A stretch of 64,000 nt of DNA from Candidatus Omnitrophota bacterium (GCA_043820815.1 JBDRDJ010000004.1:14956-78955), one strand, 5' to 3'. Counted from the first letter of the stretch, positions 29,769 to 47,804 are shown. Notes: a model not told the origin generated them from the letters alone. Translations and numbers: made by a program.

Positions 29769-29800
29769 AATTTAATCTGCGGCCATCTGCGTTAAAACTA

Positions 29801-31259: not shown

Positions 31260-31288
31260 TTGACATGCTTATGCGGCTAAGGTAAAAT
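31260..31288 (+). promoter_or_regulatory. Sigma70-type promoter ahead of the PPIase-cpaB-secretin-ATPase gene string
   Basis: TTGACA 31260-31265, 17-nt spacer, TAAAAT 31283-31288. Confidence 0.6.
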
Positions 31289-31307: not shown

Positions 31308-32210
31308 ATGCCTAAGAAAGTTTTAACTATTTTAGTTTTATGTGTAATCCTTATAGCAGGATGTGATAATCTTCCCTGGAATAAGCCGCAACAGCCAAAA
31401 CCGGAAAAATCGCCGGTTCTTTCCTATAAAGGCCCTCTTTTAGCCCAAGTAGGCAATTGGGCTATAGGAAAAATAGATTTTGAAAACCAGCTTAAAGCCG
31501 TAAGGGCCATAAATGCTGAAATTGATACCGAGAATAAAGAATTCCAAAAGCGTTTTCTCCAGGAGCTGGTAGATATCGAGACTCTGGCTCAGGAAGCAGA
31601 AGCTCAGGGTGTGGATAAGGAAAAAGAGGTTCAGGACGCAATAAGAAATTTTAAGCGTACCCTCCTGGCACAGAAGATGCTCGGTGACATAGCAAAAAGC
31701 ATTACTGTAACCGATGTGGAAATAAAGAATTTCTACGAAAGTAACAAATTGGCTTTAACAGAGCCTCAGCAGACAAAAGTGCGGGAAATAGTTGTTTCAA
31801 CTGAGACGGAGGCCAAAGACCTTTTAATTAAACTTCTTAAAGGCGAAGATTTCGCAAGCCTTGCAAAAGAATACTCCGTGTCAGAGAATAAAAGCAAAGG
31901 GGGAGACCTGGGGTATTTGATTTTTGGTTCGGAAAATATCCCGGAGAGGCTCAAGAATTTTGAGAAGTTCTGGCAGACAGTATTCACTACTGAAAAAGGA
32001 AGCTCTTCGAATTATTTTAAAGGAGAAGAAGGATACTATATTATCAAGGTTGAAGATATAAAAGAAGGAAAAATCACTCCTTTAAGCGAAGTCCGCGAGG
32101 CAATAGAAGAGAGGCTGCGCAGGGATAAAATAGAGAAGAAAAAAGACGATATAGTCTTTAGCGCCAAGTCAAAATTCGAAATAAAGGTTAATAGCCATTT
32201 GCTCGACTAA
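31308..32210 (+). CDS. Parvulin-type peptidyl-prolyl isomerase lipoprotein (PrsA/SurA-like)
   Basis: Lipobox LIAGC; parvulin segment FASLAKEYSVSENKSKGGDLGY. Confidence 0.8.
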   Translation: MPKKVLTILVLCVILIAGCDNLPWNKPQQPKPEKSPVLSYKGPLLAQVGNWAIGKIDFENQLKAVRAINAEIDTENKEFQKRFLQELVDIETLAQEAEAQGVDKEKEVQDAIRNFKRTLLAQKMLGDIAKSITVTDVEIKNFYESNKLALTEPQQTKVREIVVSTETEAKDLLIKLLKGEDFASLAKEYSVSENKSKGGDLGYLIFGSENIPERLKNFEKFWQTVFTTEKGSSSNYFKGEEGYYIIKVEDIKEGKITPLSEVREAIEERLRRDKIEKKKDDIVFSAKSKFEIKVNSHLLD

Positions 32211-32228: not shown

Positions 32229-33041
32229 ATGGACAAAAGAATGGTGAACATAGTAATCGGTCTTATTGTGGGTATGTTTGCGCTATTTCTGATTTGGCAG
32301 CATAACGCAAGGCAGGAAGCGAGAATCCAGAGGCTTATTGAGGAAGGCAAACTCGTTGAAGTCGTTGTCGCAAGGAGAGACATACCTAAAGAAACCACTA
32401 TAACTCAGGATATGATTGAGAAGAAGGTAGTAAAGAAGAATACTTTAAACCCGAATGACTTAAGTGATGTTCAATCCGTTATCGGCCAGTTTGCCGAGAC
32501 CGATATTTTAAGAGGCCAGTATATAAGCGCAAACATGTTAAGGATTTTAACGGGGGCGGATTACCTTTCTCAGACAGTTCCACCGGGTTACCGGGCGATA
32601 ACTATTCCTGTTGACAAAATTTCCGCTATCGAAGGCTTACTTCGTCCGGGAGACAAGGTCGATATTATAGGAACTTTCAGCCTGCCCACAGGCTCAGGCC
32701 AGAATGCTCCCGTTGTTGTCAATGTGTTTCAGAATGTTAAGATTCTTGCGACAAATAAAAACATATCTCCTTATCAACAGTCAACGAGCATCGATACTAT
32801 AACGCTTTCTCTTAAACCGGAAAATGTTAAAGTGCTTACCTATATGTTAGAGTGGAGCAAACTCAGGCTGGTGTTAAGGTCTCCTTTGGATACCGGCGAA
32901 GAGTTTGGGTATTCAGCGGTCACATTTGATAATTTAATGGCGCGCCTGGGGTTTACTCCGCCGCCTCCGACGTCTAAGCAAGATGAGCTTACTGTTGAGG
33001 TTTACCGCGGCTCACAAAGCGGCGAGGAACCTTTGCGCTGA
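32229..33041 (+). CDS. cpaB: Flp pilus assembly protein CpaB/RcpC
   Basis: N-terminal TM, SAF-like VVVARRDIPKETTITQDMI, RcpC-type beta domain; sits upstream of the secretin. Confidence 0.8.
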   Translation: MDKRMVNIVIGLIVGMFALFLIWQHNARQEARIQRLIEEGKLVEVVVARRDIPKETTITQDMIEKKVVKKNTLNPNDLSDVQSVIGQFAETDILRGQYISANMLRILTGADYLSQTVPPGYRAITIPVDKISAIEGLLRPGDKVDIIGTFSLPTGSGQNAPVVVNVFQNVKILATNKNISPYQQSTSIDTITLSLKPENVKVLTYMLEWSKLRLVLRSPLDTGEEFGYSAVTFDNLMARLGFTPPPPTSKQDELTVEVYRGSQSGEEPLR

Positions 33042-33164: not shown

Positions 33165-34793
33165 TTGAGAACGATAATAATAACTTCTTTCATATTTATA
33201 TTCTCGTTTTTCTCTATTTTTCCTTTCACAACTCTAACAGCTCAAAATTTTCTAAACCTCGAAGAAGATGACAAAGAAATATCGCTTATTGTGGGTGAGG
33301 TTAATGTTTTTAGTGTTTTATCTCCCAAGCGGGCATCTATCCGTAATCCGGAAATCGCTGATATTACTAAGATTTCCGGAAATGAGGTTGTTGTCGTGGC
33401 AAAACAAGGCGGAGAAACCGTACTTACAATATGGGACAAAGCGGGGAAAAACGAATTTTTTATTACTGTCCAGCCCCAGGATCTCGATAGAGTCAGTGAG
33501 AAACTCAAGAATTTGATAAATAAAAATTTAGAGATAGAGAACGTATCTTTTAAAAATAATGAAGTTACCGGCAAGATAATGGTTATGGGAGAGGTAACAC
33601 CTGTTGAGAAAGCGAATATCGAAAGCGTTCTCGAGCCCTTTGCTGCAAGCGTAAATAACCTTCTCTCCTTAAAGGAAGAGAGCAAGATGGTTGAGATTGA
33701 ATGCCAGGTTCTTGAATTGAACAAGAGTAAAATAGACCAGTTGGGTGTTAACTGGCAGGATTATTTGCAATTTAGAGAGGAGCCTTATTCGGCTCCCGGC
33801 ACCACTTCTACGGGAGGCGTCAGCACCACCCTGAATAAAATAAAACCCTGGAGCGCTATTTGGCCTGTGCATTTATGGTCAAGAGACGCACTTACCGCGC
33901 GTATCAATATGATTATTGAAGACGACAAGGGAAGAATCCTTTCCAGGCCTCAGCTTATGTGTTTAAGCGGAAAAGAAGCAAAGCTGACAGTAGGAGGAGA
34001 AGTCCCCTATGTTAGTTCATCGACAACCAATGAGACCGGCACAGGAGTTGATGTTGAGTATAGAGAGTACGGGGTAATCTTAACTTTACAGCCCAATGTG
34101 ATTTCCGGCAACAGAGTCCTTCTTAACGTAAGCACTGAAGTAAGCGAGCTTGACTGGACAAACGCTATCACGGTTTCGAGCATAAGCATCCCCGCATTCA
34201 CTACCCGCGAAGCCGAAACCGTTTTGAATGTTGACTCCGGAGATACTATATTCATCGGCGGCCTCATCAAAAACGAAGAATCAAAAAATATTGATAAAGT
34301 TCCCGGTTTGGCAAACATTCCTATTCTGGGGGCGCTTTTTAGGTCTAAGGATTTTCAGAATGACGAAACCGAGCTTGTCATAACCTTAACGCCTATAATC
34401 AGGGAAAGTAACATTGAAAAGCCCCGGCCGGCTGCCGAGGGCCAGGGGCGTGCTCCGATTTCTTTAAAACCGGTTGTGTTTCCCGAGTACCTTACACATG
34501 ATAAAAACTTAAACGAATATATACTTAAAGTCCAAAACATGATTTTTAAATCCCTTGGCTATCCCAGGCTCGCAGGCGAAGCGGGCTGGCAGGGAGATTT
34601 GAAACTCAAGATTCATTTAAACCAGGAAGGACATATTATCGAGGCAAGAGTAATTGAGTCTTCCGGGTATGAGTATTTTGATAGTAGTGCTCTTGATGTC
34701 GCAAAGTCTTTAAGTCCGTACCCGCCGTTTCCTTCTAGCGTAGAGCTGGAAGACCTATGGATAGACATACCTATAGCCTATAGAATAAAGTAG
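33165..34793 (+). CDS. cpaC: Tad-type secretin (CpaC/RcpA) with a C-terminal TonB-C-like domain
   Basis: Signal peptide; pilus-formation N-domain (LIVGEVNVFSV…VVVAKQGGETVLTIWD); secretin core (VPGLANIPILGALFRS); last ~90 aa (GYPRLAGEAGWQGDLKLKIHLNQEGHIIEARVIESSGYEYFDSSALDV) look like TonB_C. Confidence 0.8.
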   Translation: MRTIIITSFIFIFSFFSIFPFTTLTAQNFLNLEEDDKEISLIVGEVNVFSVLSPKRASIRNPEIADITKISGNEVVVVAKQGGETVLTIWDKAGKNEFFITVQPQDLDRVSEKLKNLINKNLEIENVSFKNNEVTGKIMVMGEVTPVEKANIESVLEPFAASVNNLLSLKEESKMVEIECQVLELNKSKIDQLGVNWQDYLQFREEPYSAPGTTSTGGVSTTLNKIKPWSAIWPVHLWSRDALTARINMIIEDDKGRILSRPQLMCLSGKEAKLTVGGEVPYVSSSTTNETGTGVDVEYREYGVILTLQPNVISGNRVLLNVSTEVSELDWTNAITVSSISIPAFTTREAETVLNVDSGDTIFIGGLIKNEESKNIDKVPGLANIPILGALFRSKDFQNDETELVITLTPIIRESNIEKPRPAAEGQGRAPISLKPVVFPEYLTHDKNLNEYILKVQNMIFKSLGYPRLAGEAGWQGDLKLKIHLNQEGHIIEARVIESSGYEYFDSSALDVAKSLSPYPPFPSSVELEDLWIDIPIAYRIK

Positions 34794-34794: not shown

Positions 34795-36963
34795 ATGCAG
34801 GCACGCATAATAACATTATTCAGCCCTAAGGGAGGGGTAGGTAAAACCCTTTTTTCTCTTAATATCGCGGTGAGCCTTTCCTCAAAAGCAAGGCGGGTGT
34901 TGTATCTTGACCTCGATTTGGGCGCTCCTCAATCAACCTCGAAACTATTGGGAATTTCGGCTAAGTATTGTCTTTTTAATCTCATAGAACAGTTTGATGA
35001 ATTCGCCCAGAAGAAGCGCAATGTGCACAGCTACCTTTCCCGGTATAAAGGCAATTTAGCCTTTTTGCCTTCGATAACCAAGCTTTCCCAGAGGTCAAAG
35101 ATAACCTCGCAGGTAATAAAGGATTTCTTAAACCTCGTTCAAAACGATTTCGATTTTATCATCATAGACGGCGGAAGCACTTTAACCGACAACCTTATTA
35201 CCACCTTTGATTTCTCAAGCCTTATTCTTCTTGTGTTAACACCTGATACTCTTTCAATTTATCAAACCGAGTGGCTTCTTGATACCCTTCAGAGCATCGG
35301 GTTTCCTTCGCGTATGATAAAAGTAATATTAAACCGTGCCGAGAGTAAAGGTTCTATCAGCTGGCAGGAGATAAAAGCTATTCTGCCTTCCGAAATTATT
35401 GCGCTCGTTCCATCAGAAGGAAAAGTCGCAGGAGTATCTATGAACAAAGGCGTTCCGATTGTTGACTATAGCCCCAATTCTAAGATTTCAAACGCAATTG
35501 ATAAACTTACAAAAGATTTAATTGACAGAGCTGATATCCATATTGAACATAAAGACTTAACCCAAATCCGCCTATCAAAAGACTTAGAAGTCCAGGAAGA
35601 GGAATTGTTCTGGGAGAAAATAGGTTTGGCTGAGAAGACTGAAAAGATAGAGCTTAGGGAAGAGGAAGATGAGGTGATAAGATTCAAAAAAAGGGTTCAC
35701 CAGCAGCTTATCGAAGAACTTGATTTAAAACGCCTGTCTATCGAAGTTTTCTCATACAGCCCTGATCGAATAAGGGAATTGCGTAAGCGGGCAGAGAGAG
35801 TTGTGGCCAATATAATAAGCAAAGAAGCCGGAGGATTCATCTCTTCTCTTGAGGTGCGTAAGAAAGTGACCAAAGAGATACTGGATGAGGCTCTTGCTTT
35901 CGGGCCTCTGGAAGATCTTCTCAAAGACCCGTCCACAACAGAGGTAATGGTTAACAATAAAGACCATATTTACATAGAGAGAGAAGGTAAGCTTTATTTA
36001 ACAACCAAGAAGTTTACCAGCAACGATCAGGTAAGAATAGTTATTGAAAGAATACTTGCTCCTTTAGGAAGGAGAATTGATGAGTCTGTTCCTTATGTTG
36101 ACGCCCGCCTTCCTGACGGCTCACGCGTTAATGCTATTATATCGCCCCTTTCTTTGACCGGGCCGACTTTAACCATAAGAAAATTCGCTCGCCAGCGTTT
36201 TACCATGGACCATTTAATAAATAAATTCGAGAGTTTAACCCCTGAGATAGCCTTGTTTTTAAATGCCGCAGTCAGGGCCCGCAAAAATATCCTGATTTCA
36301 GGCGGAACCGGTTCAGGAAAAACAACATTCTTAAATATTTTATCTGAGTATATCCCTGATGAAGAGAGGATTGTTAGTATTGAAGATTCAGCCGAGCTTA
36401 AACTTCACCAGGCACACTGGGTAAGGCTTGAGGCGCGGCCGCCTAATATTGAGGGAAAGGGCGAGATTACAATAAGGGATTTATTCAGAAATTCCCTTCG
36501 CATGCGCCCTGACAGGATAATCGTAGGTGAAGTTAGAGGCCACGAAGTTATTGATATGCTTCAGGCCATGAATACAGGCCACGACGGGAGTATGTCAACA
36601 ATTCATGCCAACACAACCCATGATGTTTTAATAAGGCTTGACAGTATGATTTTGATGAGCGGCATAGAACTTCCTGTGCGTTCCATAAGAGAGATGATTG
36701 CTTCAGCCCTTGATTTGATTGTCCAGACAGAGCGTTTGTCAGACGGGTCCCGTAAGGTAGTTGCTGTTACAGAAGTTGTCGGCATGCTCGATGAAACCCA
36801 TATAAACCTTCAGGATATATTTTACTACCGCCAGACCGGCGTAGATGATAAAGGAAAAGTTAAAGGTTATTTTACTTCTTTAGGCTATATTCCTACATTC
36901 TACGATGAAATTCGGGCCCGCGGCATTGATTTACCCAGAGAAGTATTCATCTCTAAAGAATAA
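34795..36963 (+). CDS. TadZ/CpaE-like ParA/MinD ATPase fused to a TadA/CpaF secretion ATPase
   Basis: N-terminus SPKGGVGKT (deviant Walker A); C-terminal half GGTGSGKTT, IVSIEDSAEL, TGHDGSMSTIHAN (T2SSE/VirB11 family). Confidence 0.8.
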   Translation: MQARIITLFSPKGGVGKTLFSLNIAVSLSSKARRVLYLDLDLGAPQSTSKLLGISAKYCLFNLIEQFDEFAQKKRNVHSYLSRYKGNLAFLPSITKLSQRSKITSQVIKDFLNLVQNDFDFIIIDGGSTLTDNLITTFDFSSLILLVLTPDTLSIYQTEWLLDTLQSIGFPSRMIKVILNRAESKGSISWQEIKAILPSEIIALVPSEGKVAGVSMNKGVPIVDYSPNSKISNAIDKLTKDLIDRADIHIEHKDLTQIRLSKDLEVQEEELFWEKIGLAEKTEKIELREEEDEVIRFKKRVHQQLIEELDLKRLSIEVFSYSPDRIRELRKRAERVVANIISKEAGGFISSLEVRKKVTKEILDEALAFGPLEDLLKDPSTTEVMVNNKDHIYIEREGKLYLTTKKFTSNDQVRIVIERILAPLGRRIDESVPYVDARLPDGSRVNAIISPLSLTGPTLTIRKFARQRFTMDHLINKFESLTPEIALFLNAAVRARKNILISGGTGSGKTTFLNILSEYIPDEERIVSIEDSAELKLHQAHWVRLEARPPNIEGKGEITIRDLFRNSLRMRPDRIIVGEVRGHEVIDMLQAMNTGHDGSMSTIHANTTHDVLIRLDSMILMSGIELPVRSIREMIASALDLIVQTERLSDGSRKVVAVTEVVGMLDETHINLQDIFYYRQTGVDDKGKVKGYFTSLGYIPTFYDEIRARGIDLPREVFISKE

Positions 36964-36971
36964 GGTAAAAG

Positions 36972-38036
36972 ATGGCTCAAGGTATTGAGAAGCTTGCAAA
37001 ACTATTGGCTGACTCCAAAATAACCGAAATAATGATAAACGGCCCCCAGGCTACATGGCTCGAACTTGGGGGTAAGAAGTTTAAAGTAGATGTCATTTTC
37101 AGCGAGGATGACGTTAAGGATATAATCGATGAGTATTTTACCAAAGTCGGGAAAACAATATCTTACTTTCATCCTTTTGGCGATGTTTGCCTTCCTGACG
37201 GTTCCCGTGTCAACATCATCCAGCATCCACTTTCGCGCTGCGGGACCGCGATAACCATAAGAAAATTTGACCGCGAACTGCATTCTTTAGACGACTTAGT
37301 TGTAAGGGGAACTCTAAACCAGAAGATGGCAGAGTTTCTAATTGCCTGTATAAGAGGAAGAATCAATATTCTTTTTTCCGGCGCAACTGGCTCAGGCAAA
37401 ACCACCACCATGGAGATGCTCTCTCATCATATACCCGAACAGGAAAGAGTCGTAACCATAGAGGATACCGCTGAACTTGTTCTCCATCAGGATAATTTGG
37501 TGCCCATGGAAACGCGCACTCCCGATGAGCATGGAAAAGGAGAAGTCAGCCTGCGTGACCTTATACGAAATGCTCTTCGCATGCGCCCGGACAGGATAAT
37601 CGTCGGCGAGGTAAGGGGGCCTGAGGCGCTTGAGATGATTCAGGCTATGTCCACCGGCCACAGGGGAACCTTGGCTGTAATTCACGGAAATTCCCCACAG
37701 GAGATAACAAGCAGGATGGAAACCCTGATACTTTCCTCAGGCATAAAGCTTCCCATTGAAGAAATAAGGCGTATGATCGGTAAAACCTTAAATATTATAA
37801 TCCAGCAGGAGCGTTCAGATGATGGTGTACGCCGTATAACTCATATTTCTGAAGTGCGCGGTGTCGAGCGCAATGAGGTCGGCCTCCAGGATTTGTTTAT
37901 CTTCCGCCGTGAAACCAAGGATCATGAAGGAAGAATCCAGGGCAAATTCAAGACCGTTATGAGAAATTATCCCCGTTTTTTCCCCGAATTTCAGCGTCTC
38001 GGCCTTCTTGACGATAAGGCCTTCTCCGATTATTAA
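36972..38036 (+). CDS. Second TadA/CpaF-family secretion ATPase (no N-terminal extension)
   Basis: ITEIMINGP, GATGSGKTT, VVTIEDTAEL, TGHRGTLAVIHGNS. Confidence 0.85.
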   Translation: MAQGIEKLAKLLADSKITEIMINGPQATWLELGGKKFKVDVIFSEDDVKDIIDEYFTKVGKTISYFHPFGDVCLPDGSRVNIIQHPLSRCGTAITIRKFDRELHSLDDLVVRGTLNQKMAEFLIACIRGRINILFSGATGSGKTTTMEMLSHHIPEQERVVTIEDTAELVLHQDNLVPMETRTPDEHGKGEVSLRDLIRNALRMRPDRIIVGEVRGPEALEMIQAMSTGHRGTLAVIHGNSPQEITSRMETLILSSGIKLPIEEIRRMIGKTLNIIIQQERSDDGVRRITHISEVRGVERNEVGLQDLFIFRRETKDHEGRIQGKFKTVMRNYPRFFPEFQRLGLLDDKAFSDY

Positions 38037-38085: not shown

Positions 38086-38180
38086 TGAAAAATGGTTACT
38101 TTATATGGTATAAATAAATGAAAAGAGGGTTTTGGGATACAACCAACCAAACCAAGGGGGCGAAGAGCCCCCTCTTTTTT
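38086..38180 (+). promoter_or_regulatory. Promoter-leader-terminator module P1
   Basis: TTGAAA 38086-38091, 18-nt spacer ending ATATGG, TATAAA 38110-38115, N3, ATGA. Weak terminator GGGGC-gaaga-GCCCC + T-run at ~38156-38180. Confidence 0.5.
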
Positions 38181-38293: not shown

Positions 38294-39739
38294 ATGGCAC
38301 AAAAGAAAATCGAGAAATCAATCAAGAAATTGGTTATAAGAGAGAAGAAAAAAGCCCCTTATTTAGGGGTAAGGGAAATTTCCCGAATTATTAAGGAAAA
38401 ACATAATATCTCAGTTTCGAAGAGCGCAATCTCTAATATACTTTCCAACAAAGGTATAAGCGAGGGTAAGGGGCGAAAGCCGTCTTCTATCAGGTATGCC
38501 ACGCAAGAGAATTTGCAGTGCGGCCTTCTTCTTTTAAAAGCCTTGGATTCGCATATCGGTTTATTTAATGAAGCTGCCCGGCAATTAGCGGTTTATTTCC
38601 CGAAGCTGAAAATTGATAAGGTCCAGAAGCTATTAAACCTTGCTGTTTTTTCATCAATGGCCGGCGCAAACAATTCCCAAAACATAGAAAGAAAAGGACT
38701 GCTTAGCATATCGGGTTTGTATAAATTTCCCGCCTTGGCATGGGATAATTTAAATAGGGTAATTGAAAAATATAACCCTCCAGTGAGCCTTGCGGCGATG
38801 AAAGAAGACTTAAAGATCGCCTCATCGGTTAAGTTTATATTTTCTGACGGGTCAACCGGTTTTTGCGATGCTAAATTTTCAACTTTATGGGATGTGCCCT
38901 GCGGGGTTGAGGAGTTCTTTCTCCCTCTTAAATGGGTTCGCCAGCGGATTAGGCGGATGCTTGATGAAAAGACATTGATAATCGGCTACACAAAAAGTTT
39001 TGATCATCTATCCCCTCTTGTTTTAGACTTTATCCAGGGCATAAAAACCGGATTAAGCAAAATAGAAGTTTTGGGAGAAGATGATGAGGCCATATATGAA
39101 TTAAATGAAGAAATTTCCGGCATTACGCTTGCGTGCGGTTATGCCCCCAGAATTTTAGCAAAAGGCATGACTTTTCTTGCTAAACAGGGAAGGTTCCACA
39201 GGCATTTTTGGCAGGAGCTCGGCCAGATTTATACGGTTAAAATCCTTACAGAATTTTCTTGTCCCCAGAAAAAGCAGGCAATCAGATTGCCAAACATTCT
39301 TATAAAACATAAAATAGCGGCGCTTCCCGTATGGGGTGTTATCACAACGGAAAATATAAAAAGAAGGTCAAAAGACTTTACGCTTCTGATGAAAAGGTAT
39401 TTTTATTCCTGGCCTTATCCCCATGACACTTTTGAAGCCGATATGAAAATCATAGAGCAATCTCTTTTTGCTGTTGCGCAAAGCAGGGATTTTATACGTA
39501 AAATCATCCCCGACAACCTTACGATATCGGCTCTTTCTGACTTTAAAGTTTTGGGGTATCTTCTTATGCAGGTATTTCAGAAAATGATTGCAGAGGCAGA
39601 GCTCCTCAATAAAAAAGGCTCTTTTTCTTACCATAAGGAATTTGTCAAGGTATTTTTACCTTTATTAAATAAGGAAGTGAAAAAAAAGATTAACCGTTCA
39701 GGGCTGTATTTAGATGAGAAAAGAATATTTGTTACATAA
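38294..39739 (+). CDS. Hypothetical protein with N-terminal helix-turn-helix
   Basis: 481 aa; LGVREISRIIKEKHNISVSKSAISNILS HTH-like; no other motif recognised. Confidence 0.5.
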   Translation: MAQKKIEKSIKKLVIREKKKAPYLGVREISRIIKEKHNISVSKSAISNILSNKGISEGKGRKPSSIRYATQENLQCGLLLLKALDSHIGLFNEAARQLAVYFPKLKIDKVQKLLNLAVFSSMAGANNSQNIERKGLLSISGLYKFPALAWDNLNRVIEKYNPPVSLAAMKEDLKIASSVKFIFSDGSTGFCDAKFSTLWDVPCGVEEFFLPLKWVRQRIRRMLDEKTLIIGYTKSFDHLSPLVLDFIQGIKTGLSKIEVLGEDDEAIYELNEEISGITLACGYAPRILAKGMTFLAKQGRFHRHFWQELGQIYTVKILTEFSCPQKKQAIRLPNILIKHKIAALPVWGVITTENIKRRSKDFTLLMKRYFYSWPYPHDTFEADMKIIEQSLFAVAQSRDFIRKIIPDNLTISALSDFKVLGYLLMQVFQKMIAEAELLNKKGSFSYHKEFVKVFLPLLNKEVKKKINRSGLYLDEKRIFVT

Positions 39740-40105: not shown

Positions 40106-40450
40106 ATGAAATTAAGAAAATCACAATCAATACTCGAATATATAAGCGTTTCGATTGTATTCGCAGTTGTAGGCGTTGCTGCCTTTATCGCCGGCATCAA
40201 AGGCGCCGCCGACACATACCAGGGAACAACAGAAACTTATTTCTCTGAAAGCACCCTTATGGGAAAAACATTAGAAGACAAAGTTGATCAGGGCCAGTAC
40301 AAATGGCCGTCTAATTGGGCCGAGCACACTGATCAATTCGGCGGTTCTGTGCCCCAGGATCAAATAATCAATGACCCGGGCGAAAACAACGGTTATACCG
40401 CAGGCCAGGCCCGCGGCGAGCTTTACGAAATGCCAAACTGGAGCCGATAA
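40106..40450 (+). CDS. Flp/Tad-type pilin-like protein (a)
   Basis: AGGGAGG RBS; MKLRKS-QSILEY-ISVSIVFAVVGVAAFIAG. Confidence 0.6.
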   Translation: MKLRKSQSILEYISVSIVFAVVGVAAFIAGIKGAADTYQGTTETYFSESTLMGKTLEDKVDQGQYKWPSNWAEHTDQFGGSVPQDQIINDPGENNGYTAGQARGELYEMPNWSR

Positions 40451-40623
40451 TGAATAAGAAAAAAATTAAAGCCCAAAGCATTATGGAATACGTGGCATTA
40501 GTATTAATCACATCCGCGGCAGTATCGGCAATCGCGTTTTATGTTTCAAGAAGCATCGAGGTAAGAGTAAGGCATCTAAACCAGGAGTTAAACGAAGCCT
40601 CAAGAGGCGCAGGTAAGATATAA
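40450..40623 (+). CDS. Flp/Tad-type pilin-like protein (b), 57 aa, not in ORF track
   Basis: ATG overlaps the previous stop (TAATG); MNKKKIKA-QSIMEY-VALVLITSAAVSAIAFYVSRSIEVRV. Confidence 0.55.
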   Translation: MNKKKIKAQSIMEYVALVLITSAAVSAIAFYVSRSIEVRVRHLNQELNEASRGAGKI

Positions 40624-40634
40624 GAGAGGTCACA

Positions 40635-41030
40635 ATGAAAAATAAGCTAAAAAAAGGCATAAAAACCCAGAGCATCCTTGAATATATCGCTGTTTTAACA
40701 GCGGTTGTGATCGCAATTGTTGCCGGAACAGTTGGTCTAAGGCAGGGTGTTGATACAGGCTTAAGCCAGATACAGGATGAGGCGACGAATAATATCATGA
40801 AGCAGACTGAGCCTCCGGAGAATATTGCGAGCCAGGATTTCTATGAGCCCCCGGGAAATTTAAATGACCCCAAATGGAACGACCAAACAGATACTTACGG
40901 CGGTGCAGAATATAATCAGGGAGAGTATTATTTTCACCAGGGCGAAAGTGATATGGGCTATGTTAAGGAAGTGGAGAAGTCTCTTCCGGCTGTGATAAGC
41001 GGCAGTTTACCAGAGACAGAGATTAAATAA
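40635..41030 (+). CDS. Flp/Tad-type pilin-like protein (c)
   Basis: MKNKLKKGIKT-QSILEY-IAVLTAVVIAIVAG. Confidence 0.6.
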   Translation: MKNKLKKGIKTQSILEYIAVLTAVVIAIVAGTVGLRQGVDTGLSQIQDEATNNIMKQTEPPENIASQDFYEPPGNLNDPKWNDQTDTYGGAEYNQGEYYFHQGESDMGYVKEVEKSLPAVISGSLPETEIK

Positions 41031-41040
41031 GGGAGCAAAG

Positions 41041-41205
41041 ATGTTATTTAAACGCAAATCCCAAAGTTTCCTTGATTACGCGGCGTTGATAGCCCTTGTT
41101 TCACTATCTTTGATAGCCATGACCGGTTATATATTCAGCTCCATAAGAGCGCGCACACATCACGCCTGGGCTGATATATATGATCCGATAACCGGAGTTA
41201 GATAA
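41041..41205 (+). CDS. Flp/Tad-type pilin-like protein (d), 54 aa, not in ORF track
   Basis: MLFKRKS-QSFLDY-AALIALVSLSLIAMTGYIFSSIRAR. Confidence 0.5.
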   Translation: MLFKRKSQSFLDYAALIALVSLSLIAMTGYIFSSIRARTHHAWADIYDPITGVR

Positions 41206-41262
41206 TATATGTTTTTGAAGAATCTTTGTAAGATTAGAATAAAAATAGGGGAGGTGGATAAA

Positions 41263-41472
41263 ATGAGAGTTAAAAAAGCTCAGAGCATCTTAGAATATAT
41301 CATTGTGTTGTCAGCTATTATTGTTGCCGTAATTGCCGCGGCAAACGGGCCTATAAGAAATGCCATCAACCAGATGTTTACTGACTCCTCAGAGGTTATG
41401 ACAACCCAGACAGCTACATTTCTAAATAACGCAGGAAGAAACCCGGATGGCGATAATATTAACCAGCAATGA
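41263..41472 (+). CDS. Flp/Tad-type pilin-like protein (e)
   Basis: GGGGAGG RBS; MRVKKA-QSILEY-IIVLSAIIVAVIAA; 69 aa, closest in size to a classical Flp. Confidence 0.6.
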   Translation: MRVKKAQSILEYIIVLSAIIVAVIAAANGPIRNAINQMFTDSSEVMTTQTATFLNNAGRNPDGDNINQQ

Positions 41473-41529
41473 TTAAAAGTATACTGTCACAAGAAAAGCT
41501 ATGACAAAATAATTTAAGGAGGTGTCCCG

Positions 41530-41841
41530 ATGTTAGTAAAGATGAAAAAAGCACAATCAACGGCGGAATACGCAATTCTCTTTGCCTTGGTTGTAGCGGC
41601 GGCCATGGGAATACAGAACTATGTAAAACGCGGCCTTGAGGCCCGCGTGTTTGATGCAGTAAATGACTACGTTGCCACAACCGGCGGCCAAACCCTGCAA
41701 TACGAAGGAACAAGCGGTGAAAAAATAACGACTAATCAAAGACAGGAAAGGACATTTGTTGAGGATTTTGATAATCAGGATTCTCCGATTACCATAACCG
41801 AAGACATGAAAGCCGATCACACATCCTTCACACGTCAATAA
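41530..41841 (+). CDS. Flp/Tad-type pilin-like protein (f)
   Basis: AAGGAGG RBS; MLVKMKKA-QSTAEY-AILFALVVAAAMGIQNYVKRGLEARV. Confidence 0.6.
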   Translation: MLVKMKKAQSTAEYAILFALVVAAAMGIQNYVKRGLEARVFDAVNDYVATTGGQTLQYEGTSGEKITTNQRQERTFVEDFDNQDSPITITEDMKADHTSFTRQ

Positions 41842-41924
41842 GGCTTAAAGCAAAGGATTTGTTAAAACTTTTGACATAGAGCCAAAAGTTATTCCGATGG
41901 CAAAATTTTAAGGAGGTGTAAGAC

Positions 41925-42251
41925 GTGTTACAGAAAATGAAAAAATCACAAAGCACATTAGAGTATGCTCTTCTTATAGGTGTAGTCGTGGGAGCATTGC
42001 TTACCATGCAGACCTATATTAAAAGGTCAATCCAAGGAAGGTTGGTTACCGTAGGTGACCAGATAGGCGACCAGTATTCACCCGATTTAACCAAGCGCAA
42101 CGAGCACATGTTAGTAACCAACGACAGAGTTGTTGAAGCGACAACCGGAGGAGTTGCCGGTTTTATGGAAACAACTGTTGAGGGAGGCCGCACTGAATCT
42201 CAAACTAGAAGAGAGGTAAGCCCGCTTGACCAGGAGACCTTTGTTGAATAA
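41925..42251 (+). CDS. Flp/Tad-type pilin-like protein (g)
   Basis: AAGGAGG RBS, GTG start; MLQKMKKS-QSTLEY-ALLIGVVVGALLTMQTYIKRSIQGRL…GDQIGDQY. Confidence 0.6.
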   Translation: MLQKMKKSQSTLEYALLIGVVVGALLTMQTYIKRSIQGRLVTVGDQIGDQYSPDLTKRNEHMLVTNDRVVEATTGGVAGFMETTVEGGRTESQTRREVSPLDQETFVE

Positions 42252-42286
42252 GGCCCAAGCTAAGGATAATGCAAGGAAGGGTGATA

Positions 42287-42628
42287 ATGAGAATAAGCCG
42301 TAATAACACTATAAACAAACGGTTTAAGAAAGCCCAGTCTGTTTTGGAATATGCACTGTTAGTAGCAGTTTCCGTAGGCGCTCTTTTAGGCGCAGGAGCC
42401 TATATAAAAAGAGCTATGCAGGGCCAGCTTCAGGCAACCAGCGACCAGATGGCAGACCAATATGCAAACGGGCTTACGGATTTGCACGAGCAGTTCACAT
42501 CAGAATCAAGAACAGCCCAGGTAAAATGGCCGGGGCCGCTTGATACAGCCCGTTCAAAAGGGTCATTTTCAGCAAGATCAGAGCGCAAATCGCGGCCTTT
42601 AGATGAAACACAACCCTTTAATAATTGA
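42287..42628 (+). CDS. Flp/Tad-type pilin-like protein (h)
   Basis: …KRFKKA-QSVLEY-ALLVAVSVGALLGAGAYIKRAMQGQL…SDQMADQY. Confidence 0.6.
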   Translation: MRISRNNTINKRFKKAQSVLEYALLVAVSVGALLGAGAYIKRAMQGQLQATSDQMADQYANGLTDLHEQFTSESRTAQVKWPGPLDTARSKGSFSARSERKSRPLDETQPFNN

Positions 42629-42667
42629 AACGAATTGCGAAATACGAAATCACGAGGTAATCATTAG

Positions 42668-43369
42668 ATGGTTATGAAATTAAAGAAAAACCCTAAAAAA
42701 GCCCAATCTTTCTTAGAATACTCTTTTCTAATCGCAATAGCCGTTGTAACACTCCTTGCCATGGGTAGTTATTTATCAAGAGGCATGCAGGGCAATTTAA
42801 AACAGCACGTTGACAACTTAGGCGGTGAAAGAGTAACCGGAGATACCTTTACCCCGGGTAAGTGGTATGGCGACGGCGATTTCTCAAATGTGGCAAAAAT
42901 AACCAGCTGGGCTTTTGAATACGAAGGAAGAGAGGGTTTCTCAGTTATGACAGGAGGCATGAAAAGGAGCGATTTAAATAAAATTACAGGAACCGCTAAT
43001 TTAAATGAAGTCCCCGAGGCAAATATTAACTTTGAATCACAGCTTTCCGGAGAGGAAAAAGCCCTTGTCAATTCGGTATTCGGTTCATCGTTTGACCCCG
43101 GCATGGATGTTATGGTTAACAATGTAAATTCTCAAACTCCTCATTTCTCAAGCCCCAACGGCGGCATTGTTGAAATGGGCGAATTTGCCGCAGATAGCTT
43201 AAGTAACCAGGCAGTTGGTATTGTTGAAGAATACGTAACTCAACCTGACATTAACCAGGCTCAGCAGGATATTGAAACATTTAAAAACAACCCTGATTAT
43301 AACCCCGAGGACTTAACAGGTTTAAATTACGATGAATTAAATGTAGATGCAAGTGAGGCAGTCAAATGA
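42668..43369 (+). CDS. Flp/Tad-type pilin-like protein with a long C-terminal extension (i)
   Basis: …NPKKA-QSFLEY-SFLIAIAVVTLLAMGSYLSRGMQGNL; 233 aa. Confidence 0.6.
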   Translation: MVMKLKKNPKKAQSFLEYSFLIAIAVVTLLAMGSYLSRGMQGNLKQHVDNLGGERVTGDTFTPGKWYGDGDFSNVAKITSWAFEYEGREGFSVMTGGMKRSDLNKITGTANLNEVPEANINFESQLSGEEKALVNSVFGSSFDPGMDVMVNNVNSQTPHFSSPNGGIVEMGEFAADSLSNQAVGIVEEYVTQPDINQAQQDIETFKNNPDYNPEDLTGLNYDELNVDASEAVK

Positions 43370-43779
43370 AAACCATAAACAAAAAAGGAAATGCGATAGT
43401 CGAATACAGCGTCTTATTATTTATTGTTATCGGCTTTTTATCAAGCATGCATTATTTTTTAAACCGTCATATCCAGGCCCGCGTGCGCCATGAAACAAAT
43501 CAAAAGGTTCGCCGGCCAATGCCGTTTATATGGCAAAGCTCAGTTGAATTCAGCAGTCAAAAGGCAAACCACGACCGGAAAGAATATGCTTATGGCGATA
43601 CAATTGTTGAATCGGATTTCCAAACGTCTTATACTGTTTTAAGCGCGCCGCCGCCGCCAAAAGTGCCTTTACCAATTGCCAGCCTTCATATCCAGGATGC
43701 GGCAATGCCGGCACCGGGACAGTCAAATCCTGGACATAGACGCATGTCGCATGATGAGGGAACTAACCCTGAGGATTAA
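43366..43779 (+). CDS. TadE/TadF-like minor pilin candidate (j)
   Basis: ATGA overlap with the previous gene; MKTINKKG-NAIVEY-SVLLFIVIGFL…FLNRHIQARV. Confidence 0.5.
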   Translation: MKTINKKGNAIVEYSVLLFIVIGFLSSMHYFLNRHIQARVRHETNQKVRRPMPFIWQSSVEFSSQKANHDRKEYAYGDTIVESDFQTSYTVLSAPPPPKVPLPIASLHIQDAAMPAPGQSNPGHRRMSHDEGTNPED

Positions 43780-43797
43780 TAATTAAAGGAGTATAGA

Positions 43798-44376
43798 ATG
43801 AAAATAGAGTCTGTTAACAAATCACAAGCAATGGTTGAAATGGCTGTTTTAGGCACACTTCTGCTTGTTGCTGTTGGCATTGTTGTAACTTATGTTGCCA
43901 AGCTTAATAATGACCAGTGGGTGCTTATGCAGGCATTTAGAAGTGCCCTTGCTAAAGCTCATGATACAAATGAGATTGTTTCTTACGGAACTTGGGATGA
44001 CCGCAGAATGGCTTCGGTTAGCGAGCCCATTTTAGGCCAGAGAATTACATCAAGCGGTTCAGCAGTTGTTCATTGGTCAATTCCCAGCGTTGAAGGTTCA
44101 GGGGAGAGCCCGCAAGATAAAACTTATGTTAAAGTTAACGGTGGAATGATTCCTAAGCTTTATGAGTATGACCTTGGTTCAGGCCAAAGCGGAGGGGTTG
44201 AACCGATATATATAACAACAAAACATTCAAAAGTAACAATTGATACCCAGAATGATAAAACGCAATCTACCCGTTCAGCAGGAACCGCAGAAGCTATGAT
44301 TTATAAAATTGCAGAGAAAAACTATCCGCAGGCAAGGTATTCCGGAGCCTCACGCACCTTAACCGGAGGAAAGTAA
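43798..44376 (+). CDS. TadE/TadF-like minor pilin candidate (k)
   Basis: AAGGAG RBS; MKIESVNKS-QAMVEM-AVLGTLLLVAVGIVV. Confidence 0.5.
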   Translation: MKIESVNKSQAMVEMAVLGTLLLVAVGIVVTYVAKLNNDQWVLMQAFRSALAKAHDTNEIVSYGTWDDRRMASVSEPILGQRITSSGSAVVHWSIPSVEGSGESPQDKTYVKVNGGMIPKLYEYDLGSGQSGGVEPIYITTKHSKVTIDTQNDKTQSTRSAGTAEAMIYKIAEKNYPQARYSGASRTLTGGK

Positions 44377-44381
44377 GTGTT

Positions 44382-44502
44382 ATATCAAAAATCAAAAATT
44401 AAATATCAAAATGACAATGTAAAAATAAAATTTTTAAGATTGAGTCTAAACATTTTAAATTTTAATTTGTAATTTTGATTTTTGATATTTGATTTTTAAT
44501 TT
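44382..44502. repeat. AT-rich inverted-repeat element without cargo
   Basis: Left arm ATATCAAAAATCAAAA… pairs with right arm …TTTTGATTTTTGATAT. Right arm TTTTAATTTGTAATTTTGATTTTTGATATTTGATTTTT is ~40/43 identical to 45228-45270. Confidence 0.55.
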
Positions 44503-44517
44503 AAAATCGGAGGATAA

Positions 44518-44778
44518 ATGAAAAAGATAAGCTCACAAAGTTTACTTGAATCAGTCTTGGCATTTGCCGCGGCAACGGCGATAATAGGAGCGGCAATGGG
44601 TATTTTCGGCTGGGGCATTGCCCATATTCCCGCACGCCAGGCAACTTATGAGGCAACCCGCGTATTAGCCGGAAGGTCGCGGGGGCGCAATGTCGATGAG
44701 AGAGGCGCTCATGGCGGCGCATACGCAGTCCCGGTTTGGCCGACATACTCAACCGGCGCCGGATTGGCAGCCTACTGA
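44518..44778 (+). CDS. Pilin-like small protein (l)
   Basis: GGAGG RBS; MKKISS-QSLLES-VLAFAAATAIIGAAMGIFGW; GC-richer tail. Confidence 0.45.
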   Translation: MKKISSQSLLESVLAFAAATAIIGAAMGIFGWGIAHIPARQATYEATRVLAGRSRGRNVDERGAHGGAYAVPVWPTYSTGAGLAAY

Positions 44779-45219: not shown

Positions 45220-45270
45220 TTTTTACATTTTAATTTGTCATTTTGATTTTTGATATTTAATTTTTGATTT
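45220..45270. repeat. Right AT-rich inverted repeat of the four-helix-bundle cassette
   Basis: TTTTTACATTTTAATTTGTCATTTTGATTTTTGATATTTAATTTTTGATTT. Confidence 0.5.
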
Positions 45271-45293
45271 ATTTCAATATCAGGAGGCAAAAC

Positions 45294-46592: not shown

Positions 46593-46730
46593 ATTAAGAT
46601 AGAAGAGCTATGAAACACAAATATATATTTTTTACGTAGCATACAAAAAATATATAAATTAGATAATTTTTATTTTATCTGTTTTATCCTTTTATTAAGA
46701 ATTTTAAAGCGATATTATTTCGGAGGTAAG

Positions 46731-47801: not shown

Positions 47802-47804
47802 CCT

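What the first reader, a model, noticed from the sequence alone, without database searches (positions are those of the whole stretch)
34795..38036. Two adjacent CpaF/TadA-type ATPases, the first fused to TadZ
Seen: ORF 34795-36963 has a MinD/ParA deviant Walker A (SPKGGVGKT) in its first ~250 aa, a charged linker, then a complete secretion ATPase (GGTGSGKTT, IEDSAEL, TGHDGSMSTIHAN). ORF 36972-38036 is a second complete ATPase (GATGSGKTT, IEDTAEL, TGHRGTLAVIHGNS) that begins directly at the ITEIMING N-domain. Established knowledge: canonical tad loci encode TadZ and a single TadA as separate proteins, and Caulobacter CpaF is reported to drive both extension and retraction. Inference: the duplication could split extension and retraction roles (PilB/PilT-like), or the two could form a hetero-hexamer. 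The fusion would hard-wire the localisation factor to one motor.
Basis: partly seen in the sequence, partly recalled or inferred. Interest (0 to 1): 0.6.

Follow-up and report, generated by a model that had tools for sequence, protein, structure and literature searches.

The report
Fused Tad motor plus short paralog
An uncultured Omnitrophota bacterium encodes a pilus motor already fused to its positioning protein (an architecture recently described in the predator Bdellovibrio), followed by a second, stripped-down motor-like ATPase that has not been described and could bear on how Tad pili extend and retract.

Summary
ORF 34795-36963 (722 aa) is a TadZ-TadA fusion and ORF 36972-38036 (354 aa) is a second CpaF-type ATPase made of NTD2+CTD only. 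The fusion is not an artefact: more than 100 Omnitrophota clusters have it at full length. It is also not new. The same ARD-less "TadZA" architecture was described and functionally studied in Bdellovibrio bacteriovorus (bioRxiv 10.64898/2026.07.08.737194), and I found it in Bdellovibrionota loci. The Omnitrophota version differs in keeping the P-loop lysine (KGGVGKT, 113/119). The second ATPase is not a recent tandem duplicate: it was sister to the fusion core in 0/100 bootstraps and forms its own clade in 94/100. It keeps all hydrolysis residues. It lacks NTD0/NTD1 and the CpaF-specific platform-contact residues D208, R217 and E331. Close orthologs always follow tadZA (8/8). It is absent or truncated in other TadZA-bearing Omnitrophota, and divergent clade members are orphans. 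The extension/retraction split is plausible but untested. Residue patterns are partly complementary, yet neither paralog keeps R387. A mixed ring remains a live rival. Overall: a known fusion in a new phylum, plus an undescribed accessory paralog.

The parts
31260..31288 (+). Best sigma-70-like promoter match in the region (TTGACA-17-TAAAAT, 11/12), just upstream of the first operon gene
   Evidence: A consensus match only, not proof of function.
31308..32210 (+). SurA/PrsA-like peptidyl-prolyl isomerase, first gene of the conserved module
   Evidence: Pfam Rotamase_2/3. Found at the same position in all Omnitrophota contexts L081-L086.
32229..33041 (+). CpaB/RcpC
   Evidence: TIGR03177 pilus_cpaB, 148 bits, above cutoff; Pfam RcpC+SAF.
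33165..34793 (+). Tad secretin (RcpA/CpaC) with a C-terminal TonB_C domain; its stop is 1 nt before tadZA
   Evidence: Pfam Secretin 5e-47, T2SS-T3SS_pil_N, and TonB_C at aa 465-541.
34795..35544 (+). TadZA residues 1-250: ParA/MinD-like TadZ module without the N-terminal receiver-like (ARD) domain; full deviant Walker A KGGVGKT
   Evidence: Pfam AAA_31/CbiA/ParA. Scores 31-106 bits against free TadZ but 39-55 bits against solved MinDs. GK[ST] is present in 113/119 Omnitrophota TadZA and 3/65 free TadZ. AF2 pLDDT is about 85.
35545..35670 (+). TadZA residues 251-292: charged linker, predicted disordered
   Evidence: AF2 pLDDT <50 for residues 262-291. Corresponds to the disordered CpaF NTD0.
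35671..35895 (+). TadZA residues 293-367: three-helix NTD1
   Evidence: Helices 293-309, 323-344 and 352-367. Aligns to CpaF residues 75-149; NTD1 is defined in PMC11300603.
35896..36963 (+). TadZA residues 368-722: CpaF NTD2+CTD with all catalytic and extension-face residues; P386/R387 replaced by T-H
36972..38036 (+). ATPase2: CpaF-like NTD2+CTD only (354 aa). Hydrolysis core intact; S at position 208, C at 217, H at 331, R at 375, Q at 387 (Caulobacter numbering)
   Evidence: AF2 pLDDT 89.3; best fold match is CpaF, TM 0.81.
38155..38180 (+). Terminator-like hairpin (AGGGGGCGAAGAGCCCCCT plus a T-run) about 120 nt after ATPase2
   Evidence: A consensus match only.
38294..39739 (+). Conserved 481-aa protein of unknown function (weak N-terminal HTH) downstream of the motor genes
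   Evidence: 37% identical homolog in L083 and a distant one in L082. Only a weak HTH_Tnp_Tc3_2 hit.
40106..44778 (+). Array of about 14 pilin-like genes with a K-(A/S)-Q-S-x-L-E-Y N-terminus followed by a hydrophobic helix
   Evidence: Translations. Weak PF04021 Class III signal match. Similar arrays of small genes lie downstream in L082, L083 and L085.
45264..46592 (+). TadG-like protein (weak Tad/TadE-G N-terminal motif)
   Evidence: PF13400 E=5e-4, below cutoff. Homolog in L083.
53539..54399 (+). TadB-like platform protein (T2SSF)
   Evidence: PF00482, 3.8e-19.
54399..55277 (+). TadC-like platform protein (T2SSF)
   Evidence: PF00482, 8.9e-16.

Best explanation
SHOWN: the two genes end a five-gene unit (PPIase, cpaB, secretin::TonB_C, tadZA, ATPase2) of a Tad (type IVc) pilus system in a Candidatus Omnitrophota genome. 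Gene 1 is a TadZA hybrid: an ARD-less TadZ module, a disordered linker, and a complete CpaF/TadA (NTD1+NTD2+CTD). It is the conserved core motor of this lineage and has the same architecture as B. bacteriovorus TadZA. Gene 2 is a separate, older CpaF-like lineage reduced to NTD2+CTD. It is catalytically intact by motif and was recruited directly behind tadZA in one Omnitrophota sublineage. INFERRED mechanism: TadZA hexamers dock on the TadB/TadC platform through their conserved N-terminal face (D208, E331-G-x-G) and drive pilus assembly, with the fused TadZ module positioning or recruiting the motor. ATPase2 forms its own accessory hexamer that engages the same platform in a different mode, playing a PilT/PilU-like role (retraction or modulation of dynamics). 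The reasons are that it has the domain composition of retraction ATPases, lacks the extension-face contact residues, is dispensable where TadZA is retained, and can be encoded away from the tad operon, as pilT often is. The confidence given (0.4) is for the inferred mechanism; the identity-level statements are about 0.9.
For: Identity. Both are in the CpaF family. The fusion is conserved in 118 of the 120 best hits, in at least 41 clusters at 50% identity, and in Bdellovibrionota. Free tadZ followed by tadA is the ancestral order. TadZA has been described and shown to be essential in B. bacteriovorus. Operon. Gaps of 1 nt and 8 nt, a promoter-like site at 31260 and a terminator-like site at 38155. 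ATPase2 as a distinct lineage. Monophyletic in 94/100 bootstraps and sister to the TadZA core in 0/100; 43-45% identical to every CpaF. Catalytic core. K287, E312, R223, R347, E357, R359, H374 and H382 are all 22/22, and 112 homologs of at least 330 aa were retrieved. Division of labour. ATPase2 lacks NTD0/NTD1 and has D208->S (16/22) and a variable E331, whereas TadZA keeps both in 24/24. D208K and Central-Loop mutants abolish Caulobacter pilus extension (PMC11300603). TadZA of the ATPase2-bearing lineage has lost P386/R387: 0/28 keep R, against 25/90 other TadZA and 22/22 canonical CpaF. R387A blocks retraction in Caulobacter. ATPase2 keeps P386 in 22/22. Accessory status. It is truncated in the complete genome CP070807 (L081) and absent next to tadZA in L082, L084 and L085. 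Orphan clade members occur in L089 and L090. Close orthologs are always adjacent, 8/8.
Against: No experiment exists for any Omnitrophota Tad protein. ATPase2 also lacks R387 (Q in 15/22), so it does not carry the one residue shown to matter for CpaF retraction. Its S208 and non-Arg 217 are shared with archaeal FlaI and GspE2, so they may be ancestral states rather than specialisation. The R387/partner correlation is confounded by phylogeny, and the partner call (matching contig lengths) is noisy. By sequence and fold ATPase2 is a CpaF, not a PilT (TM 0.81 against ~0.6), so the PilT analogy rests on domain composition only. Tight coupling to tadZA and multi-core CpaF polypeptides in other phyla fit a mixed ring equally well. 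B. bacteriovorus tadA2 is dispensable for predation, so extra TadA paralogs can be functionally marginal.
Confidence: 0.4

Rival explanations
1. Mixed ring: TadZA and ATPase2 co-assemble into one hetero-hexamer (for example 3+3 or 2+4). Only some subunits then carry NTD1 and the TadZ module, and ATPase2 subunits fill the remaining positions.
For: The genes are 8 nt apart in one operon, and close ATPase2 orthologs are always directly behind tadZA (8/8). In other phyla, single polypeptides join one full CpaF (with NTD1) to one or two abutting NTD1-less cores of ~356-363 aa: P0241/P0400 has three cores, and P0246 and P0254 have two. That is the same composition as TadZA plus ATPase2 and shows that such mixed rings are viable. 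CpaF rings are built from NTD2(n)/CTD(n+1) units and work with C2 symmetry (PMC11300603), which tolerates non-equivalent subunits.
Against: None of the multi-core proteins contains an ATPase2-like core; all keep R217. Some could be gene-calling read-throughs. ATPase2-clade genes occur alone among housekeeping genes. TadZA persists without ATPase2 in several lineages and in Bdellovibrionota, so the partnership is not obligate. ATPase2 is an old, separate lineage rather than a subfunctionalised copy.
Confidence: 0.25
2. Marginal or regulatory paralog: ATPase2 is a redundant or decaying extra TadA that contributes little to the machine (comparable to B. bacteriovorus tadA2), or a non-motor regulator that titrates the platform or nucleotide.
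For: It is truncated before the His box in a complete genome (L081). It is missing next to tadZA in L082, L084 and L085. It lacks platform-contact residues that are invariant in other CpaFs. Deleting rcpA2-tadA2 does not impair predation in B. bacteriovorus.
Against: There are 112 homologs of at least 330 aa at 50-86% identity, with every hydrolysis residue invariant and 59 invariant columns in a 35-sequence alignment. That indicates long-term purifying selection on an active enzyme. The position directly behind tadZA is conserved in all close orthologs.
Confidence: 0.2
3. Artefact: the fusion is a missed stop or frameshift, or a misassembly, between separate tadZ and tadA genes.
For: Other phyla have separate tadZ and tadA in the same order.
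Against: The 722-codon ORF is uninterrupted. 118 of the 120 best homologs, from independent assemblies (NCBI, JGI, ENA, Logan), are collinear at ~720 aa, including a complete 1.82-Mb genome. The fused protein also lacks TadZ's ~135-aa N-terminal domain, which a simple frameshift would not remove. The same architecture is verified experimentally in B. bacteriovorus, where full-length fusion protein was detected by immunoblot.
Confidence: 0.01

Closest known systems
TadZA fusion ATPase of Bdellovibrio bacteriovorus HD100 (Bd0111; Tesseur, Denise, Santin & Laloux, bioRxiv 10.64898/2026.07.08.737194)
   Same: [quoted passage not shown] The gene lies directly after rcpC and rcpA. Alignment is collinear over the whole length at ~40% identity with Bdellovibrionota proteins. 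The core is 56.6% identical to the core of the Bdellovibrionota MAG protein in L087.
   Different: The Omnitrophota module has the full deviant Walker A with the P-loop lysine (KGGVGKT; 113/119), whereas the Bdellovibrionota locus proteins and the consensus quoted for B. bacteriovorus (K/RGGXGXS/T) lack it. The downstream gene here is a second ATPase, not tadB. The secretin carries a TonB_C domain. No RomR partner is known. The TadZ modules are no closer to each other than to free TadZ, so a single origin of the fusion is not demonstrated.
Caulobacter crescentus CpaF (PDB 8RJF/8RKD/9E24), the single bifunctional Tad motor
   Same: It is the best solved relative of both proteins (385 and 280 bits). 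It shares the NTD2+CTD fold (TM 0.81 for ATPase2) and all Walker A/B, Asp-box, His-box and trans-arginine residues.
   Different: CpaF is a free protein with NTD0+NTD1 and a separate CpaE/TadZ. TadZA replaces NTD0 with TadZ plus a linker and lacks P386/R387. ATPase2 lacks NTD0/NTD1, D208, R217, E331 and R387.
PilB/PilT (and PilU) dual-motor type IVa pilus systems
   Same: A long N-terminally extended ATPase is paired with a ~350-aa ATPase made only of N2D+CTD. The short one can be encoded away from the main operon and is dispensable for assembly (established knowledge; model).
   Different: ATPase2 is not a PilT homolog (~20% identity, TM ~0.6) and has no AIRNLIRE motif. A retraction role is inference only.
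Extra TadA paralogs of B. bacteriovorus (rcpA2-tadA2 module, tadA3)
   Same: They are additional TadA-like ATPases alongside an essential TadZA, and at least tadA2 is dispensable.
   Different: They are encoded at other loci (tadA2 with its own secretin), not directly behind tadZA. Whether they are NTD1-less or related to ATPase2 was not tested here.

Membership tests
CpaF/TadA (Tad pilus ATPase; T2SSE superfamily): ORF 34795-36963, C-terminal part | Walker A, Asp box, Walker B, His box and the arginines R217/R223/R347/R359 | tested here: met
   All are conserved in 24/24 sampled Omnitrophota TadZA cores. Motifs were tabulated in 118 homologs.
CpaF/TadA (Tad pilus ATPase; T2SSE superfamily): ORF 34795-36963, C-terminal part | NTD1 (3-helix) + NTD2 + CTD architecture, with CpaF as the closest solved relative | tested here: met
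   Aligns to CpaF residues 75-490, 385 bits. Three helices at 293-367 in the AF2 model.
CpaF/TadA (Tad pilus ATPase; T2SSE superfamily): ORF 34795-36963, C-terminal part | Encoded in a tad locus with RcpC/CpaB, the RcpA secretin and TadB/TadC | tested here: met
CpaF/TadA (Tad pilus ATPase; T2SSE superfamily): ORF 34795-36963, C-terminal part | NCBIfam TIGR03819 (TadA family) trusted cutoff | tested here: not met
   332 bits against a cutoff of 373. That model is a narrow hypothetical equivalog for conjugal-transfer-associated TadA, so this does not argue against membership of the wider CpaF family.
TadZ/CpaE: ORF 34795-36963, N-terminal part | ParA/MinD-fold ATPase domain encoded between the secretin and tadA | tested here: met
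   Pfam AAA_31/CbiA/ParA. Same gene order as free tadZ in 64 loci. Higher scores to free TadZ (up to 106 bits) than to solved MinD (39-55 bits).
TadZ/CpaE: ORF 34795-36963, N-terminal part | [quoted passage not shown] | tested here: not met
   The ATPase domain starts at residue 3, whereas in free TadZ it starts at ~135. ARD absence is also reported for B. bacteriovorus TadZA.
TadZ/CpaE: ORF 34795-36963, N-terminal part | Atypical Walker A K/RGGxGx[ST] without the P-loop lysine | tested here: not met
   The window has KGGVGKT. GK[ST] is present in 113/119 Omnitrophota TadZA and only 3/65 free TadZ.
TadZA hybrid (as defined in B. bacteriovorus) | One polypeptide: ARD-less TadZ, flexible linker, complete TadA | tested here: met
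   Collinear with Bdellovibrionota proteins.
TadZA hybrid (as defined in B. bacteriovorus) | The TadZ+linker region binds a polarity hub (RomR), with dynamic polar localisation | not testable with these tools
   Reported only for B. bacteriovorus. No RomR search was made.
CpaF/TadA: ORF 36972-38036 (ATPase2) | Catalytic motifs (K287, E312, E357, H374, H382, R223, R347, R359) | tested here: met
   22/22 at every one of these positions.
CpaF/TadA: ORF 36972-38036 (ATPase2) | NTD1 three-helix domain | tested here: not met
   The protein starts at CpaF residue ~150. The AF2 model begins with one short helix and then the NTD2 sheet. Homologs are 353-356 aa.
CpaF/TadA: ORF 36972-38036 (ATPase2) | CpaF-specific platform-contact and finger residues D208, R217 and E331 | tested here: not met
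   S in 16/22, C in 18/22 and variable, against invariant or near-invariant in the 89 other cores. S208 and non-Arg 217 are shared with FlaI and GspE2.
CpaF/TadA: ORF 36972-38036 (ATPase2) | Groups inside the canonical CpaF clade in a rooted tree | tested here: inconclusive
   Its own clade has 94/100 support. It falls outside the canonical+TadZA clade in 31/100 replicates and inside a clade with them (excluding the short delta paralogs) in 66/100. The method was NJ only, and long-branch effects are possible.
PilT/PilU retraction ATPases | Sequence or fold membership, AIRNLIRE motif | tested here: not met
   PilT hits score only 40-48 bits. Fold TM ~0.6 at ~20% identity, against 0.81 for CpaF. 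The translation has no AIRNLIRE-like motif.

The most novel reading that the evidence does not exclude
A sublineage of Omnitrophota has naturally split the bifunctional Tad motor into two specialised machines. TadZA would be an extension-only motor (extension face intact, retraction-face P386/R387 lost, permanently tethered to its positioning module). ATPase2 would be an NTD1-less CpaF-like ring that engages TadB/TadC differently to drive retraction or another step. That would be a convergent, CpaF-derived equivalent of PilB/PilT, and a natural test of the 'motor inversion' model of Tad bidirectionality.
Probability: 0.2. Interest if true: 0.75.

Novelty: new variant of a known kind. Interest (0 to 1): 0.45.

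Why it matters
How a single CpaF drives both extension and retraction of Tad pili is an active question (PMC6920026, PMC11300603, PMC12019362, bioRxiv 10.64898/2026.02.24.707734). A Tad system carrying two CpaF-type ATPases gives a natural comparison for assigning functions to the faces of the motor. One ATPase has an intact extension face but no P386/R387. The other has no NTD1 and a divergent extension face. The result also extends the TadZA architecture, so far described only in Bdellovibrio, to a whole candidate phylum of suspected predators or parasites. That fits the reported TadB/TadC affinity between Omnitrophota and Bdellovibrionales (PMC10066038). The Omnitrophota TadZ module has a hydrolysis-type Walker A, which may mean the positioning module cycles ATP like MinD instead of acting as a static adaptor. 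Practical impact is limited because these organisms are uncultured, so tests must be biochemical or heterologous.

Tried and rejected
(1) Genome scan with the fusion as query. It returned almost only non-Omnitrophota canonical loci, because tblastn joined adjacent tadZ and tadA into apparent full-length matches. ORF analysis showed these are separate genes. This was useful as the ancestral state but not as evidence that the fusion is widespread.

(2) My recollection that Bd0110 and Bd0111 are two adjacent ATPases, as worded in PMC3818213. Rejected: Bdellovibrionota contexts show a T2SSF (TadB) gene after the fusion, in agreement with PMC5430801.

(3) Reading R217->C and D208->S in ATPase2 as inactivation. 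Rejected after finding the same states in the active archaeal FlaI and GspE2.

(4) A single origin for the Omnitrophota and Bdellovibrionota fusions. Not demonstrable: the TadZ modules are no more similar to each other than to free TadZ, and the tree backbone is unresolved.

(5) Rosetta-stone search for a polypeptide joining a canonical core to an ATPase2-like core. Multi-core CpaFs exist, but none contains an ATPase2-type core.

(6) Taxon names for divergent ATPase2-clade members: none were available.

(7) Pfam on the small downstream ORFs: only sub-threshold Class III signal hits and no Flp model hit.

(8) Search for an outgroup within the fetched loci: none found, so I used FlaI and GspE2 segments transcribed from the PDB alignments.

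(9) The full-length TadZA AF2 model had low confidence in part of the CTD (residues 521-626) because the alignment was shallow. I used it only for domain boundaries.


Full report
**Observation**

The finding is accurate at the sequence level. ORF 34795-36963 (+, 722 aa) and ORF 36972-38036 (+, 354 aa) exist as described, and every quoted motif is present.

- ORF1 matches ParA/MinD-type families over residues 4-250 and T2SSE over residues 369-644 (E=3.6e-64).
- ORF2 matches T2SSE only (E=3.1e-46).
- Both have Caulobacter CpaF as their closest solved relative (385 and 280 bits).
- The two ATPase cores are 45% identical to each other.
- ORF2 aligns from CpaF residue ~150 onward. In the domain nomenclature of PMC11300603 (NTD0 1-79 disordered, NTD1 80-149 three-helix, then NTD2 and CTD), it is NTD2+CTD only.
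- An AlphaFold2 model of ORF2 is confident (pLDDT 89.3, pTM 0.87). It superposes best on CpaF (TM 0.81, 43% identity), then on archaeal FlaI/GspE2 (~0.7), and far less well on PilT (~0.6, ~20% identity).

**Context**

The window is a Candidatus Omnitrophota MAG contig (100% match to an NCBI protein from a 90,661-nt contig). The two genes close a compact unit:

| Coordinates | Gene |
|---|---|
| 31308 | SurA/PrsA-like PPIase |
| 32229 | cpaB/rcpC |
| 33165 | secretin with a C-terminal TonB_C domain |
| 34795 | the fusion |
| 36972 | ATPase2 |

Intergenic gaps before the fusion and before ATPase2 are 1 and 8 nt. The best promoter-like site of the region lies just upstream of the PPIase, and a strong terminator-like hairpin follows ATPase2 (consensus matches only).

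Downstream lie a conserved 481-aa unknown protein, about 14 pilin-like genes with a K-A-Q-S-x-L-E-Y N-terminus, and a TadG-like gene. TadB and TadC (53539-55277) follow after an interruption by an IS200-like transposase, a helicase and an AAA_14/DUF4143 gene.

**The fusion is real, and it is TadZ plus TadA**

- Of the 120 best database hits, 118 are collinear proteins of ~720 aa at 56-77% identity. They come from independent assemblies, and those that carry an organism name are nearly all Omnitrophota.
- An exhaustive search of 50%-identity cluster representatives found at least 41 further clusters with the same architecture at 38-48% identity.
- In 79 genomes of other phyla the same scan recovered the ancestral arrangement. 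A free tadZ (~410 aa, with its MinD-like part beginning at about residue 135 after a receiver-like domain) is followed by a free tadA (~445 aa).
- The window's N-terminal module scores higher against these free TadZ proteins (up to 106 bits) than against solved MinD proteins (39-55 bits).
- It occupies the tadZ position between the secretin and tadA.

So it is a TadZ ATPase domain that has lost the ARD. The AF2 model places a disordered linker at about residues 262-291 and the three NTD1 helices at 293-367.

**The fusion is already known**

Distant members carry names from Bdellovibrionota (Bacteriovoracia, Bdellovibrionaceae). Their loci read Flp, TadV, RcpC, secretin, fusion, TadB, then an RHS/DUF6531 protein.

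A July 2026 preprint (bioRxiv 10.64898/2026.07.08.737194) describes exactly this "TadZA" hybrid in B. bacteriovorus HD100:

- It is an ARD-less TadZ, a flexible linker and TadA.
- It is essential.
- Its TadZ+linker region binds the polarity hub RomR.
- It redistributes rapidly between the cell poles.

The Omnitrophota literature reports the Tad cluster and the affinity of its TadB/TadC with Bdellovibrionales, but does not mention the fusion or a second ATPase (PMC10066038).

One difference stands out. Free TadZ proteins and the Bdellovibrionota TadZA have the atypical Walker A without the P-loop lysine (62/65 and 2/2). The Omnitrophota module has KGGVGK[ST] in 113/119. That is the MinD/ParA hydrolysis-type motif. 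Whether the two phyla share one fusion event could not be settled.

**ATPase2 is a distinct lineage, not a fresh duplicate**

It defines a conserved family of ~353-356 aa, and the members that carry an organism name are all Omnitrophota (112 homologs of at least 330 aa, 50-86% identity).

I built a neighbour-joining tree of NTD2+CTD cores rooted with FlaI and AfGspE2 (sequences):

| Grouping | Bootstrap support |
|---|---|
| ATPase2 monophyletic | 94/100 |
| Omnitrophota TadZA cores monophyletic | 100/100 |
| ATPase2 and TadZA cores as sisters | 0/100 |

Its position relative to canonical CpaF is unresolved. It is 43-45% identical to every CpaF examined, whereas the TadZA core is 53-57% identical to Caulobacter and Bdellovibrionota cores.

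**Functional residues** (Caulobacter numbering)

| Residues | ATPase2 | Omnitrophota TadZA cores | Other cores |
|---|---|---|---|
| K287, E312, R223, R347, E357, R359, H374, H382 (hydrolysis core) | kept, 22/22 | kept, 24/24 | conserved (one R347H among 65) |
| D208 (Loop 8) | S in 16/22 | kept, 24/24 | near-invariant |
| R217 | C in 18/22 | kept, 24/24 | invariant |
| E331 (Central Loop) | variable | kept, 24/24 | near-invariant |
| P386 | kept, 22/22 | T in 19/24 | P in 15/22 canonical |
| R387 | Q in 15/22 | R in only 4/24 | R in 22/22 canonical |

D208K and Central-Loop mutants abolish pilus extension in Caulobacter. However, S208 and a non-arginine at 217 are also the states of the archaeal FlaI and GspE2. 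They may therefore be ancestral, and they do not imply an inactive enzyme. P386/R387 are the residues that Whitfield et al. tie to retraction.

**Distribution**

- All close ATPase2 orthologs for which I hold DNA lie directly behind tadZA: the window, L001, L083, L091, L092, L093, L094 and L096 (8/8).
- In the complete genome CP070807 the copy is truncated at residue 232, before the His box (L081).
- In three more distant TadZA-bearing Omnitrophota there is no copy at that position (L082, L084, L085).
- More divergent clade members are orphans among housekeeping genes (L089, L090).
- Among TadZA clusters with an inferred same-contig ATPase2, 0/28 keep arginine at position 387, against 25/90 of the rest. 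This is suggestive, but it is confounded by shared ancestry and by an imperfect partner call.

**Mechanism**

What is shown: a TadZA core motor, plus an accessory, catalytically intact, NTD1-less CpaF-like ATPase co-transcribed with it in one sublineage.

What I infer as most likely (about 0.4) is a division of labour. TadZA docks on TadB/TadC through its intact N-terminal face to assemble pili. ATPase2 forms its own ring and acts on the platform in another mode, analogous to PilT/PilU. The supporting points are:

- its domain composition;
- its divergent extension face;
- its dispensability;
- its occasional orphan location;
- the loss of P386/R387 in its partner TadZA.

Against this, ATPase2 itself lacks R387 and is a CpaF rather than a PilT by sequence and fold.

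The main rival (about 0.25) is a mixed ring. It is supported by the tight coupling of the two genes. It is also supported by multi-core CpaF polypeptides in Anaerolineae- and Fimbriimonadaceae-named clusters, which join one full CpaF to one or two abutting NTD1-less cores. That is the same composition as TadZA plus ATPase2, although none of those cores is ATPase2-like.

A marginal or regulatory paralog (about 0.2) is also possible, by analogy with the dispensable tadA2 of B. bacteriovorus. Strong conservation of the hydrolysis core argues against decay. An assembly artefact is excluded.

**Verdict**

The fusion is a new phylum-level occurrence of a known architecture, with one notable variation (the hydrolysis-type Walker A). 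The adjacent NTD1-less paralog is, as far as the searched literature shows, undescribed. I rate the whole as a new variant of a known kind, of moderate interest. It would become considerably more interesting if the two ATPases prove to split extension and retraction.

Noticed in passing
window 33165-34793: The Tad secretin carries a C-terminal TonB_C domain (aa 465-541). The same secretin::TonB_C fusion is present in all six Omnitrophota contexts (L081-L086) but not in the Bdellovibrionota loci (L087, L088).
   Followed up: partly
window 40106-44778, 47634-47801, 48252-48434, 49498-49680: At least 15 small ORFs share an N-terminus of the form [KR]-K-(A/S)-Q-S-x-L-E-Y followed by a hydrophobic helix. 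They give only sub-threshold hits to the archaeal-type Class III signal peptide model (PF04021, E=0.006) and none to Flp models. This is an unusually large and divergent pilin repertoire.
   Followed up: partly
window 44839-53159: The tad locus is interrupted between the pilin array and tadB/tadC by a 23S-rRNA-IVP-family protein (44839), an IS200-like Y1 transposase (48712), a DEAD/Helicase_C_2 helicase (49724) and an AAA_14/DUF4143 ATPase on the minus strand (51837).
   Followed up: no
window, ORFs scanned: No Peptidase_A24 (TadV/PilD) prepilin peptidase was detected among the ORFs scanned. B. bacteriovorus also lacks TadV and uses PilD. Some Bdellovibrionota MAG loci (L087, L088) do have one.
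   Followed up: partly
window 29400-31246: comEA (HHH_3) and a short comEC/Rec2 (481 aa, Competence domain only) lie directly upstream of the PPIase-cpaB-secretin-tadZA operon. This hints at a possible link between this pilus and DNA uptake.
   Followed up: no
proteins P0241/P0400, P0242, P0243, P0244, P0246, P0254, P0276 (not in the window): These single polypeptides contain two or three complete CpaF cores. Typically one full core with NTD1 is followed by abutting NTD1-less cores. Cluster members are named Anaerolineae and Fimbriimonadaceae. They look like covalently linked pseudo-hetero-hexamer motors.
   Followed up: partly
L065 17803-18906 and L066 14936-16060: Two Deltaproteobacteria MAG loci carry a second short CpaF-like gene (367 and 374 aa) 4-7 kb downstream of the main tadA. 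The pair is 100% supported and branches deeper than ATPase2 in the NJ tree.
   Followed up: no
window 57242-61522: A 1426-aa ORF with no Pfam hit lies about 2 kb downstream of tadC. Large ORFs next to pilus or secretion genes are a reported Omnitrophota trait.
   Followed up: no
window 38294-39739: A 481-aa protein with only a weak N-terminal HTH hit follows the motor genes. It is conserved in L083 (37% identity) and distantly in L082. Its function is unknown.
   Followed up: partly
L081 12176-12871 (CP070807.1): In a complete 1.82-Mb Omnitrophota genome, ATPase2 is cut at residue 232 (before the His box) and is followed by an 1809-aa gene on the opposite strand. This is a natural loss-of-function allele with tadZA intact.
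   Followed up: yes
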